Shown here piece after piece: positions 3,928 through 19,826 of a stretch of 64,000 nt of DNA. Origin of the DNA: an uncultured archaeon. GTDB lineage: Archaea; Asgardarchaeota; Lokiarchaeia; Sigyniarchaeales; SOKP01. A program made the position numbers and the translations under genes. The notes below the pieces were generated by a model. It was not told the origin of the DNA. It did no database searches and saw only the letters and a list, made by a program, of their open reading frames with translations. Every line of letters starts with the position of its first letter. Position 1 is the first letter of the stretch. The stretch spans positions 1-64,000 of the forward strand of contig CAZGJX010000009.1 of NCBI GenBank assembly GCA_964525635.1, in the 5' to 3' direction.

Positions 3928-5532
3928 ATGGCACAATTATCAGGAGTCCCTATATTAATTTTAAAAGAGGGGACTGAGAGAAAACGAGGAAAAGATGCTC
4001 AAGGAAATAATATCGCTGCCGCTAAAGCAGTTTCAGAATCTGTGAGAACGACATTAGGTCCAAAAGGCATGGATAAGATGATTGTAGATTCACTTGGAGA
4101 TGTAACAATAACTAATGATGGAGCTACTATATTAGATTCAATTGATGTTGAACATCCCGCTGCTAAAATGATAGTTGAAGTAGCAAAAACTCAAGATAAA
4201 AAAGTTGGAGATGGTACAACTACAAGTGTTATAATTGCTGGAGAATTATTGAATCTAGCTCAAGAATTAATGGAACAACAAGTTCATCCTACCATAATTT
4301 TCAGAGGATATAGGAAAGCTTTAGTTAAAAGTAAAGAAATCTTACAAACTCTCGCTAAAAACATTCAAATTGATGATAAAGCAATATTAAAAAAAGTTGC
4401 TGAAACTTCGATGAATAGTAAATTAATTGCGGGAGCAAAAGGCCACTTTGCTGATATAGCAGTTTCTGCAATTTCACAAATCAAAGAAAAGAGAGGAGAA
4501 AATGTTGTTATTGATTTAGATCAAATTCAAATAATTAAAAAAGAAGGAAAAAGCTTACTTGATACAAAGATAATAGATGGAATGATTGTTGATAAAGAAA
4601 TTGTCAGTCCAATGATGCCTAAATCAATAAAAGAGGCTAGAATTGCATTGATAAATTCCGCCTTAGAAGTGGAAAAGACAGAATTTGATGCTGAAATAAA
4701 AATTCAAACCCCTGATCAAATTAACCAATTCTTAGCTGAAGAATCAAATATTCTTAAGAAAAGAGTATCTAAACTAAAAGAAATTGGAGCTAATGTTGTT
4801 TTTTGTCAAAAAGGTGTTGATGATAAAGCTCAAAACTTTCTTGCAAAGGAAAACATTGTTACAGTAAGAAGAGTTAAAAAATCTGATATGGAGAAATTAG
4901 CTAGGGCTACAAATGCAAATATTGTAAACAATATATTTGAAATTAGTTCAGATGATCTTGGAAATGCAGGTTTGGTAGAAGAAAAGAAGGTTGGGGAAGA
5001 CAATATGATTTTTGTATCACAATGTGCTTCTCCAAAAACAGTTAGTATTTTAATAAGAGCAGGAATTGAACATGTAGTTGATGAAGCAGAACGAATGATA
5101 CATGATGCCTTGTCAGTTGTTAAAGCAGCTATTGAGGTTCCATATATCTTACCTGGTGGTGGAGCAACTGAAATCGAATTAGCTAAAAGATTAAGAACTT
5201 TTGCTCGAACAATTGGAGGAAGGGAACAATTAGCAATTGAAGTTTATGCAAATGCTCTAGAAATTATTCCAAAAACATTAGTTGAAAATGCTGGGTATAA
5301 TCCTGTTGATTTAGTTGTTGAACTAAGATCAAAACATGAATCTACTGAGGGATCTTCTATTGGAGTAAATATAGATCAAGGAAAACCGGATGATATGGAA
5401 AAATTAGGTGTCGTTGAACCATTGGCAGTCTTAACTCAAGCCATTCAGTCTGCGACGGAAGTAGCAGCAATGATATTAAAAATTGATGATGTAATTGCCG
5501 CTTCTGGCCTCTCTAAAGGTAAAGAGGATTAA
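3928..5532 (+). CDS. ths: Thermosome (group II chaperonin) subunit
   Basis: [24 protein letters not shown] motifs. Confidence 0.97.
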
Positions 5533-10465: not shown

Positions 10466-10568
10466 GCGGGAATTGCCAAGTTTGGTCAAAGGCGGTGGAC
10501 TTAGAAGAGATTAATCTCGAAGAGATCCATTCTCAAGGAGTTCGGGAGTTCAAATCTCCCTTCCCGCA
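10466..10568 (+). tRNA. tRNA-Leu(UAG) with 19-nt canonical 37/38 intron (10506-10524)
   Basis: GCGGGAA/TTCCCGC-A acceptor, long variable arm, GGGAG-TTCAAAT-CTCCC T-arm; relaxed BHB CTTA/GAAG with GAGAT/ATCTC intron stem. Confidence 0.88.
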
Positions 10569-10821: not shown

Positions 10822-10924
10822 GCTTCTGTAGTGTAGTTCGGCCAAACTTAATATATTATATATTAAGGACTAGGCATGCGGGGCTTTCACCCCCGTGACC
10901 CGGGTTCAAATCCCGGCAGAAGCA
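10822..10924 (+). tRNA. tRNA-Glu(UUC) with 28-nt D-arm intron (~21/22; 10846-10873)
   Basis: GCTTCTG/CAGAAGC acceptor, anticodon loop CT-TTC-AC, CCGGG-TTCAAAT-CCCGG; intron hairpin CTTAATATA/TATATTAAG. Confidence 0.88.
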
Positions 10925-10938
10925 TACACATATGATAT

Positions 10939-11136
10939 GCCTCCGTAGCTCAGTTAGGTAGAGCATCAGGTCAATTGTAGACTGATCCACCCACAGCACC
11001 CGGCTAAGGTATTTGGATATTACAATACCTCCGGAAGTTAACCGGGTGGTCGCATGTTCGATATTATGCAAAAGTTCTGAGCATAACGAGTCCCATATAA
11101 TATTTGATTTACAGATATTAGAGAAAGCCGGGGGCG
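10939..11136 (+). tRNA. tRNA-Asn(GUU) with four non-canonical introns (10962-10994, 11006-11036, 11063-11092, 11097-11126)
   Basis: Exons join to a 74-nt cloverleaf GCCTCCG TA GCTC AGTTAGGTA GAGC A CCCGG CTGTTAA CCGGG TGGTC GCATG TTCGATC CATGC CGGGGGC G; each intron has an internal stem and BHB-like geometry. Confidence 0.85.
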
Positions 11137-11247
11137 CTATATTTTTTTTAATTATCTTGATTTAAACTCAATTATATTATTTTGATAATTATATCTAATA
11201 ATTTCTATAATAAGTTTTAATAAATTTGAATATCATATAATAATTAT

Positions 11248-19681: not shown

Positions 19682-19826
19682 GCAGGGATAACCAAGCCTG
19701 GTCAACGGTGCCGGACATTATTGAGAATTTCTATTCTCTCGAACTGGATTCAAGATCTATTAATTAAACCGTTGATGAGACATCCGGTCTTATAGAAGTA
19801 CGTGGGTTCGAATCCCACTCCCTGCA
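19682..19826 (+). tRNA. tRNA-Leu(CAA) with two introns (32/33: 19717-19749; 37/38: 19755-19781)
   Basis: GCAGGGA/TCCCTGC-A acceptor, CCGGA/TCCGG anticodon stem, BHB helices CCGG/CTGG and CTCA/TGAG, T-arm GTGGG-TTCGAAT-CCCAC. Confidence 0.88.

What the first reader, a model, noticed from the sequence alone, without database searches (positions are those of the whole stretch)
10939..11136. tRNA-Asn(GUU) split by four non-canonical introns, with a 4-nt micro-exon
Seen: exons 10939-10961 (23 nt), 10995-11005 (11), 11037-11062 (26), 11093-11096 (CCAT, 4) and 11127-11136 (10) join into a complete 74-nt cloverleaf with anticodon GTT and G73. The introns (33, 31, 30, 30 nt) sit at about 22/23, 33/34, 59/60 and 63/64. 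Each has a 4-bp central helix (AGGT/ACCC, CCGG/CCGG, TTCG/CGAG, TCCC/GAGA; the first and last have one mismatch), 3-nt bulges and an internal stem. None is at the canonical 37/38 site. Established: archaeal EndA cuts BHB motifs, and multi-intron tRNAs are known in Thermoproteales, where I recall up to three introns. Inference: four introns is at or beyond that range, and standard tRNA finders would probably miss this gene.
Basis: partly seen in the sequence, partly recalled or inferred. Interest (0 to 1): 0.85.

Follow-up and report, generated by a model that had tools for sequence, protein, structure and literature searches.

The report
Four-intron asparagine tRNA gene, Asgard archaeon
This is a real asparagine tRNA gene of a Loki-type Asgard archaeon, cut into five pieces (one only four bases long) by four short enzyme-removed introns; it is a clean example, but tRNA genes with four introns are already published for other Asgard archaea.

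Summary
Joining window 10939-10961, 10995-11005, 11037-11062, 11093-11096 and 11127-11136 gives a 74-nt tRNA-Asn(GUU). ARAGORN calls it only after splicing. ARAGORN and the Rfam tRNA model both miss the unspliced gene.

Relatives settle it. Three genomes of the same family carry an intron-less Asn(GUU) gene, up to 72/74 identical to the predicted product and scoring 66-68 bits on Rfam tRNA. Others carry introns at one, two or three of the same four sites. Three congeners and one genome of another genus carry all four, including the CCAT micro-exon. Exons are 97-99% conserved in the genus and introns about 78%, with compensating changes in the intron helices.

The genome encodes a two-subunit (alpha-beta) splicing endonuclease and RtcB ligase.

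The novelty claim does not hold. Four-intron tRNA genes are tabulated for Freyarchaeia and Atabeyarchaeia (2024), and a 2026 preprint reports up to five.

Two things are modestly new. The micro-exon is only 4 nt. The splice motifs of introns 3 and 4 overlap, and the motif of intron 4 borrows two bases from intron 3, which predicts that 63/64 is removed before 59/60.

I obtained no RNA data. This scan has already described three-intron tRNA genes in other Lokiarchaeal genomes.

The parts
10939..10961 (+). Exon 1 (23 nt): acceptor 5' strand, D stem 5' strand, D loop, G22
   Evidence: Identical in three congeners.
10962..10994 (+). Intron 1 (33 nt) at 22/23. Relaxed motif: central helix 3/4 (AGGT/ACCC), bulges AG|A and AC|A, inner stem of 6 pairs plus one C-C mismatch
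   Evidence: The site is occupied in 15 related genes. In congeners a different 26-nt intron sits at the same site.
10995..11005 (+). Exon 2 (11 nt): D stem 3' strand, A26, anticodon stem 5' strand, C32 U33
11006..11036 (+). Intron 2 (31 nt) at 33/34. Central helix CCGG/CCGG 4/4, bulges CT|A and AA|G, 7-bp inner stem, no exon-side helix
   Evidence: The site is occupied in 13 related genes, and the inner-stem pairs covary. This hairpin also forms in the minimum-free-energy fold of the precursor.
11037..11062 (+). Exon 3 (26 nt): anticodon GTT, A37 A38, anticodon stem 3' strand, variable loop, T stem 5' strand, T loop 54-59
11063..11092 (+). Intron 3 (30 nt) at 59/60 in the T loop. Strict motif: exon-side helix is the T stem, central helix TTCG/CGAG 4/4, bulges AT|A and TC|C, 6-bp inner stem
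   Evidence: A G-C to A-T compensating change occurs in the inner stem of congener G002.
11093..11096 (+). Exon 4, micro-exon CCAT (C60, C61, A62, U63)
   Evidence: In intron-less relatives the T arm reads TTCGATCCATGC without interruption. Other relatives are broken only at 59/60 or only at 63/64, which brackets these four bases.
11097..11126 (+). Intron 4 (30 nt) at 63/64 in the T stem. Central helix TCCC/GAGA 3/4, whose first two bases belong to intron 3. Bulges AT|A and AA|G, 9-bp inner stem
   Evidence: The central helix drops to 2/4 if intron 3 is removed first.
11127..11136 (+). Exon 5 (10 nt): G64 C65, acceptor 3' strand, discriminator G73; no encoded CCA
   Evidence: The acceptor stem covaries with exon 1 in G023.
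11142..11149 (+). Run of eight T, 6 nt after G73; likely archaeal transcription terminator
   Evidence: T-rich tracts follow the gene in relatives too. The terminator role is inferred.
10822..10924 (+). Neighbouring tRNA-Glu(UUC) gene, 14 nt upstream, with a 28-nt D-loop intron (10846-10873); probably co-transcribed with the Asn gene
   Evidence: No T run lies in the 14-nt spacer. Co-transcription is inferred.

Best explanation
Window 10939-11136 is the functional chromosomal tRNA-Asn(GUU) gene of a Promethearchaeota (Loki-type Asgard) archaeon.

Proposed pathway:
1. It is transcribed as a precursor of about 200 nt, probably together with the tRNA-Glu gene 14 nt upstream.
2. Four bulge-helix-bulge introns, at 22/23, 33/34, 59/60 and 63/64, are cut out by the genome's two-subunit (alpha-beta)2 splicing endonuclease EndA.
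3. The exons are rejoined by RtcB ligase.
4. CCA is added afterwards.

Introns 3 and 4 are separated by only four bases, so their splice motifs use the same nucleotides and cannot form together. The motif of intron 4 is better formed while intron 3 is still present, because it borrows the last two bases of intron 3. The motif of intron 3 becomes a full strict motif only once intron 4 is gone. I therefore predict ordered splicing, 63/64 first and 59/60 second. This order also means the 4-nt micro-exon is never released as a free fragment.

Shown here: the gene structure, its conservation, the motifs and the enzyme genes. Inferred: transcription, actual cleavage and the splicing order.
For: - Product: the spliced product is a canonical 74-nt tRNA-Asn.
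- Intron-less orthologues: L019, L022 and L024, in three other genera of the family, are 67-72/74 identical to it. The two I scanned, L019 and L022, score 66.3 and 68.4 bits on Rfam tRNA against a gathering score of 29.
- Site occupancy: each of the four sites is occupied independently in relatives. L017, L020 and L021 have 63/64 only. L008 and L011 have 22/23, 33/34 and 59/60. L010, in another genus, has all four with the same CCAT micro-exon.
- Selection within the genus: exons are 72-73/74 identical and introns 95-98/124.
- Covariation: the inner-stem pairs of all four introns covary across 8-15 genes while the 3-nt bulges stay fixed. The acceptor stem covaries between exons 1 and 5 in G023.
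- Enzymes: one EndA paralogue keeps the Tyr/His/Lys triad and best matches the Aeropyrum pernix endonuclease chain 3p1z_B (4e-37), which I take to be the catalytic subunit. The second has Phe and Ser at the Tyr and His positions. RtcB is present at 554 bits. PMC5829648 reports this enzyme type, with the broad-specificity L1 loop, throughout Asgard archaea.
- Splicing order, from energies of the imposed motifs. Intron 3: -5.2 kcal/mol with intron 4 present, -11.5 after its removal. Intron 4: -0.8 with intron 3 present, +3.2 after its removal. In G023 intron 4 gives -5.9 and +5.1.
- Copy number and demand: no second host-type Asn gene was found in the genome. Asn makes up 7.2% of codons in long ORFs.
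Against: - There is no RNA evidence of any kind.
- Introns 1 and 4 have only 3 of 4 central pairs. Introns 1, 2 and 4 lack an exon-side helix, so cleavage depends on an endonuclease with relaxed specificity that has not been assayed for this lineage.
- A second, intron-less Asn(GUU) gene exists in a tRNA array on contig C54 and could in principle supply the cell.
- The splicing order rests on nearest-neighbour energies of imposed structures in two lineages, not on data.
Confidence: 0.9

Rival explanations
1. The four-intron locus is a decaying or silent relic, and asparagine decoding is done by the intron-less tRNA-Asn(GUU) in the 22-23-gene tRNA array on contig C54.
For: An Asn(gtt) gene without introns lies at C54:25170-25242 and scores 64 bits on Rfam tRNA. 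Together with the array on C146 it forms a near-complete second tRNA set.
Against: - The four-intron gene keeps 97-99% exon identity in three congeners while its introns drift, with compensating changes in stems. That is the signature of a gene under selection.
- The array was found only in two of three congeners, at 73-89% identity. It was not found in G002 (98% complete), which still carries the four-intron gene, nor in 37 other relatives.
- The array tRNAs are low in G+C (Asn 42% against 64%) and diverge much faster.
Confidence: 0.06
2. The gene is real but the exon-intron map is different. For example, the T arm might be built without a 4-nt micro-exon, or from one long intervening sequence.
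For: Brute-force removal of motif-like inserts followed by ARAGORN gives many alternative 'solutions' for interrupted genes in this genome, so a motif plus a cloverleaf is not proof on its own. The central helix of intron 4 is imperfect.
Against: - A single 64-nt excision leaves no 3' T-stem strand (read directly from the sequence).
- Intron-less relatives read TTCGATCCATGC exactly as predicted. Relatives with only one of the two T-arm introns place the breaks at 59/60 and 63/64.
- No boundary shift of introns 2, 3 or 4 preserves the product.
Confidence: 0.03
3. The two T-arm introns are removed in either order or at once, so the overlap of their motifs has no functional consequence.
For: Relaxed-specificity endonucleases cut motifs with a single well-formed bulge. 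In Cyanidioschyzon merolae, introns 1 and 3 of a three-intron tRNA are removed in either order (PMC3728597).
Against: Both motifs need C60-U63 in incompatible pairings. In two genera the 3' strand of the central helix of intron 4 matches the unspliced context better than the spliced one: 3/4 against 2/4 in the window, 4/4 against 3/4 in G023. Cutting both at once would free a 4-nt RNA held by three base pairs only.
Confidence: 0.35

Closest known systems
Four-intron tRNA genes of Freyarchaeia and Atabeyarchaeia (Valentin-Alvarado et al. 2024, PMC11291895, Supplementary Data 4: Freya Arg-UCU, Ile2-CAU, Leu-GAG; Atabeya-2 Trp-CCA)
   Same: Asgard archaea. Four short protein-spliced introns in one tRNA gene, mostly at non-canonical positions, partly missed by standard finders.
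   Different: Different class (Promethearchaeia/Lokiarchaeia) and a different isoacceptor. In the part of that table I read the smallest internal exon is 7 nt, against 4 nt here. That paper does not discuss overlapping motifs or splicing order.
Census of Asgard tRNA intervening sequences (Goswami et al. 2026 preprint, 10.64898/2026.10.13.758758)
   Same: Same method as mine (alignment to compact relatives) and the same motif definition. It reports up to five intervening sequences per gene, T-arm introns with strong motifs, repeated gains, and (alpha-beta)2 EndA as a widespread background.
   Different: Its heavily interrupted families are Freyrarchaeaceae, Jordiarchaeaceae and Atabeyarchaeaceae. 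The terms 'Lokiarchae' and 'Promethearchae' do not occur in its main text. It scores each insert in the fully spliced context, in which intron 4 here would have only 2 of 4 central pairs.
Multi-intron tRNA genes of Thermoproteales (Sugahara et al. 2007, 2008; cited from reference lists and my own knowledge)
   Same: Non-canonical bulge-helix-bulge introns in the D arm, anticodon arm and T loop, spliced by (alpha-beta)2 EndA carrying the Crenarchaea-specific (L1) loop.
   Different: At most three introns per gene as far as I recall; a different phylum; hyperthermophiles with G+C-rich genomes.
Three-intron tRNA-Ile(UAU) of the red alga Cyanidioschyzon merolae, with ordered processing (PMC3728597)
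   Same: [quoted passage not shown] Intermediates show that the removal order correlates with the free energy of each motif.
   Different: Eukaryotic nucleus; three introns. There the motifs can fold independently, whereas here two of them share nucleotides.

Membership tests
Archaeal protein-spliced (bulge-helix-bulge, EndA/RtcB) tRNA intron | [quoted passage not shown] | tested here: met
   All four introns have 3-nt bulges in register. The central helix is 4/4 for introns 2 and 3 and 3/4 (relaxed class) for introns 1 and 4.
Archaeal protein-spliced (bulge-helix-bulge, EndA/RtcB) tRNA intron | Flanking helices on the intron side and/or the exon side | tested here: met
   Every intron has an intron-side stem (6, 7 and 9 perfect pairs; 6 pairs plus one mismatch in intron 1). 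An exon-side helix is present only for intron 3: 3 bp, or 5 bp once intron 4 is out.
Archaeal protein-spliced (bulge-helix-bulge, EndA/RtcB) tRNA intron | Excision restores a canonical tRNA | tested here: met
   ARAGORN calls the product Asn(gtt), 74 nt. Near-identical intron-less orthologues score 66-68 bits on Rfam tRNA.
Archaeal protein-spliced (bulge-helix-bulge, EndA/RtcB) tRNA intron | The host encodes a splicing endonuclease able to cut non-canonical sites, and an RtcB ligase | tested here: met
   There are two EndA paralogues, one with an intact catalytic triad and one without it, and RtcB. The broad specificity of this enzyme type is taken from PMC5829648, not assayed.
Archaeal protein-spliced (bulge-helix-bulge, EndA/RtcB) tRNA intron | Cleavage and ligation observed in RNA | not testable with these tools
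[quoted passage not shown] | The genome belongs to the Asgard archaea | tested here: met
   The closest EndA loci in public genomes (up to 89% identity) are titled Promethearchaeota/Promethearchaeia archaeon. NCBI places that phylum in the kingdom Promethearchaeati.
[quoted passage not shown] | Several introns per gene, mostly at non-canonical positions, within the published range | tested here: met
   Four introns, none at 37/38. The published maximum is four in a curated table and five in a preprint census.
Self-splicing group I or group II intron in a tRNA gene | Ribozyme core of hundreds of nucleotides | tested here: not met
   The inserts are 30-33 nt, and there is no Rfam intron match in the window.
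tRNA pseudogene | Broken stems or unconstrained drift of the exon sequence | tested here: not met
   All stems are intact. Exons are 97-99% identical against about 78% for introns among congeners.

The most novel reading that the evidence does not exclude
The 63/64 intron is an intron-dependent intron. Its exon is only 4 nt long, so its splice motif has to be completed by the last two bases of the neighbouring 59/60 intron. The two motifs are mutually exclusive, which enforces a fixed order (63/64 first, then 59/60) and keeps what may be the shortest known tRNA exon from being lost. This arrangement has persisted in at least two genera.
Probability: 0.45. Interest if true: 0.5.

Novelty: new member of a known kind. 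Interest (0 to 1): 0.4.

Why it matters
The gene appears to be the only host-type tRNA for the fourth most used amino acid in this genome (7.2% of codons). Growth would therefore depend on four correct cut-and-join events on one small RNA. That makes it a demanding natural substrate for testing how far the Asgard splicing endonuclease tolerates imperfect motifs.

Within one family the same gene ranges from no introns to four. This gives a compact series for studying how tRNA introns are gained, lost and replaced. It also shows that heavy interruption occurs in Lokiarchaeia as well as in the classes highlighted so far.

In practice, such genes are invisible to ARAGORN and to the Rfam tRNA model, so tRNA sets of these genomes look incomplete.

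The overlapping motifs give a simple, testable prediction about splicing order.

Tried and rejected
- Direct covariance-model scoring of the spliced product was not possible, because the RNA tools take only stored loci. I scored near-identical intron-less orthologues instead.
- tRNAscan-SE and SPLITS are not available here.
- A genome-wide search by removing motif-like inserts and running ARAGORN was tried on one gene. It gave dozens of conflicting 'solutions', so I dropped it as a census method.
- A G+C-island screen missed known tRNA genes and was also dropped.
- In its place I made a partial census using compact tRNAs from three relatives. It covers only 22 loci and is biased towards less interrupted genes.
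- Sliding the boundaries of intron 1 within the AGCA repeat: only 22/23 gives a motif.
- Chance, pseudogene and single-long-intron readings were rejected (see the rival explanations).
- No protein-complex or structure prediction was needed.

Full report
**Observation.** Joining the five proposed exons (23, 11, 26, 4 and 10 nt) gives a 74-nt RNA with 64% G+C, in a genome of 26.8% G+C. ARAGORN calls it tRNA-Asn(gtt) with a full cloverleaf, U33, a TTCGATC T loop and discriminator G73. In Sprinzl numbering the breaks fall at 22/23, 33/34, 59/60 and 63/64. The unspliced gene is invisible to ARAGORN, with or without its intron mode. It is also invisible to the Rfam tRNA model, at the gathering threshold and down to E = 1. 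The 198-nt precursor folds more stably than shuffled versions (z = -3.9). Its minimum-free-energy fold contains the acceptor stem, the hairpin of intron 2 and the stem of intron 4.

**Splice motifs.** I used the published definition:
- The four exon bases upstream of the 5' bulge pair with the four intron bases upstream of the 3' bulge.
- Both bulges are 3 nt, and the cut falls after the second base.

The four introns score as follows:
- Intron 3 (59/60) is a strict motif. Its exon-side helix is the T stem, its central helix is TTCG/CGAG (4/4), and its inner stem has 6 bp.
- Intron 2 (33/34) has a perfect CCGG/CCGG centre and a 7-bp inner stem, but no exon-side helix.
- Intron 1 (22/23) has 3 of 4 central pairs and an inner stem of 6 pairs plus one C-C mismatch.
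- Intron 4 (63/64) has a 9-bp inner stem and 3 of 4 central pairs. This holds only if the last two bases of intron 3 (TC) are counted. With intron 3 removed it has 2 of 4.

The boundaries of introns 2-4 cannot be shifted without changing the product. Intron 1 could slide within an AGCA repeat, but only 22/23 gives a motif.

**Relatives.** A DNA search of 60 related genomes, followed by alignment of each hit to the spliced product, gives a graded series for the same gene.

| Intron state | Genomes (loci) |
|---|---|
| No intron | G012, G006, G021 (L019, L022, L024) |
| 63/64 only | L017, L020, L021 |
| 37/38 only | L018 |
| D-arm site only | L014 |
| 22/23, 33/34 and 59/60 | L008, L011 |
| 22/23, 33/34 and 63/64 | L009, L012 |
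| All four, same CCAT micro-exon | congeners G001-G003, and G023 of another genus |

- The intron-less genes are 72, 69 and 67 of 74 identical to the predicted product. The two I scanned (L019, L022) score 66.3 and 68.4 bits on Rfam tRNA.
- The two T-arm breaks occur separately in other genomes, and the uninterrupted genes read TTCGATCCATGC. The 4-nt exon is therefore not an artefact of the reading.
- Across 8-15 genes per site the 3-nt bulges stay fixed, while the inner-stem pairs change through compensating substitutions.
- Within the genus, exons are 72-73/74 identical and introns 95-98/124.
- In G023 the acceptor stem changes on both strands, that is in exons 1 and 5, and stays paired.

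This is a gene under selection as a tRNA, not a relic.

**Organism and enzymes.** The assembly has 4.45 Mb in 245 contigs. The closest public loci for its endonuclease are titled Promethearchaeota or Promethearchaeia archaeon, the current names for Lokiarchaeota-type Asgard archaea. Earlier notes of this scan say the same.

The genome has two EndA paralogues of about 200 residues:
- One keeps the Tyr/His/Lys triad and best matches the Aeropyrum pernix endonuclease chain 3p1z_B (E = 4e-37), which I take to be the catalytic subunit.
- The other has Phe and Ser at the Tyr and His positions when aligned to the Methanocaldococcus jannaschii enzyme. The identity of the triad residues is from my own knowledge.

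This is the (alpha-beta)2 architecture. PMC5829648 reports it, with the L1 loop that confers broad substrate range, for Asgard and TACK archaea. RtcB is present.

**A second Asn tRNA.** Contig C54 carries an array of 22-23 tRNA genes, and C146 carries five more. Almost all lack introns. They have low G+C (Asn 42%), and some have an encoded CCA. One of them is Asn(gtt).
- The array was found only in two of the three congeners, at 73-89% identity.
- It was not found in G002 (98% complete), which keeps the four-intron gene, nor in 37 other relatives.
- So the array evolves far faster than the exons of the four-intron gene and looks like an accessory, possibly mobile, element.
- No other host-type Asn gene was found.
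- Asn is the fourth most common residue in long ORFs (7.2%). AAT alone makes up 6.4% of codons.

**How it probably works.** Transcription, probably together with the tRNA-Glu gene 14 nt upstream, would end at the T8 run six bases after G73 (inferred). EndA cuts each motif and RtcB joins the halves.

The T arm is the interesting part. The motifs of introns 3 and 4 both need C60-U63, in incompatible pairings, so they cannot coexist. Nearest-neighbour energies of the imposed motifs are given in the table.

| Motif | Other intron still present | Other intron already removed |
|---|---|---|
| Intron 3, window | -5.2 kcal/mol | -11.5 kcal/mol |
| Intron 4, window | -0.8 kcal/mol | +3.2 kcal/mol |
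| Intron 4, G023 | -5.9 kcal/mol | +5.1 kcal/mol |

In G023 the central helix of intron 4 is AACC/GGTT (4/4), using two bases of intron 3, and a 4-bp outer helix also uses intron 3.

I therefore predict that 63/64 is removed first and 59/60 second. That order also never frees the 4-nt exon, which only three base pairs would hold. This is inference from two lineages, and I put it near even odds.

**Comparison with what is known.**
- Supplementary Data 4 of Valentin-Alvarado et al. 2024 lists genes with four introns for Asgard archaea: Freyarchaeia Arg-UCU, Ile2-CAU and Leu-GAG, and Atabeyarchaeia Trp-CCA.
- A 2026 preprint counts up to five per gene and an average of 2.2 in three families.
- Ordered removal of several such introns has been shown in the red alga Cyanidioschyzon merolae.

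The present gene is therefore a new member of a known kind. The following features were not found in the papers I could read:
- An internal exon of 4 nt. The smallest in the table part I read is 7 nt.
- A splice motif completed by a neighbouring intron. The preprint scores motifs only in the fully spliced context.
- A range from no introns to four for one gene within a single Lokiarchaeal family.

**Context within this genome.** I located host-type genes using compact tRNAs from three relatives. Among 22 loci, 2 have no intron, 13 have one, 5 have two, 1 has three (Val-CAC) and 1 has four (Asn). The sample is partial and biased towards less interrupted genes. First-reader notes list further three-intron genes here. 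Only about 20 host-type tRNA genes outside the arrays are found by ARAGORN or Infernal, so much of the set is hidden.

**Verdict.**
- Interest is moderate.

Noticed in passing
window 10822-10924: tRNA-Glu(UUC) gene with a 28-nt D-loop intron (10846-10873; central helix GGCC/GACT 3/4, 9-bp inner stem), 14 nt upstream of the Asn gene. ARAGORN mislabels the unspliced gene as Val(gac) with a 10-nt intron. Removing the D-loop insert gives a 75-nt Glu(ttc).
   Followed up: yes
window 10466-10568: tRNA-Leu(UAG) with a single intron of about 19-21 nt next to the anticodon. It is the only tRNA in the 64-kb window that the Rfam model finds (45.1 bits).
   Followed up: partly
window 19682-19826: A 145-nt class II tRNA gene that ARAGORN calls Phe(aaa) with a 47-nt intron, which is surely wrong. 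By eye it reads as Leu(CAA) with two introns at about 32/33 and 38/39, leaving a 6-nt exon (TCAAGA) that holds the anticodon. Brute-force splicing gave many conflicting solutions, and no compact orthologue was at hand.
   Followed up: partly
G000 contig C54:19098-26273 and C146:5782-7574: Two arrays holding a near-complete second set of about 28 tRNA genes. Almost all lack introns; they have 42-58% G+C and some have an encoded CCA. The array was found only in two congeners, at 73-89% identity, and not in 38 other relatives. It looks like a fast-evolving accessory or mobile tRNA set. An earlier first-reader note (e1-5621004) flagged it.
   Followed up: partly
window 10962-10994 compared with L002-L004, L005, L009, L014: Intron 1 of this genome (33 nt: hairpin plus CCACCCAC) differs from the 26-nt intron at the same site in its three congeners. 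It resembles the introns of two other genera. This suggests replacement or exchange of an intron at a fixed site.
   Followed up: partly
L016 (G014:C199), about 4089-4151 and 4639-4701: Two inverted copies of the Asn gene. One is complete, with a 59/60 intron. The other stops inside that intron and runs straight into a tRNA-Leu gene. This could be a recombination or integration scar at an intron.
   Followed up: no
L005 and L006 (G018, G031): At 63/64 these genes carry a 60-nt insert without a simple motif. It may be two adjacent or nested introns.
   Followed up: no
G000 contigs C18:18795-19022, C105:10281-10529, C119:10187-11494: Genes for the catalytic and the non-catalytic EndA subunits and for RtcB. 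They lie on three separate contigs and are not clustered.
   Followed up: partly
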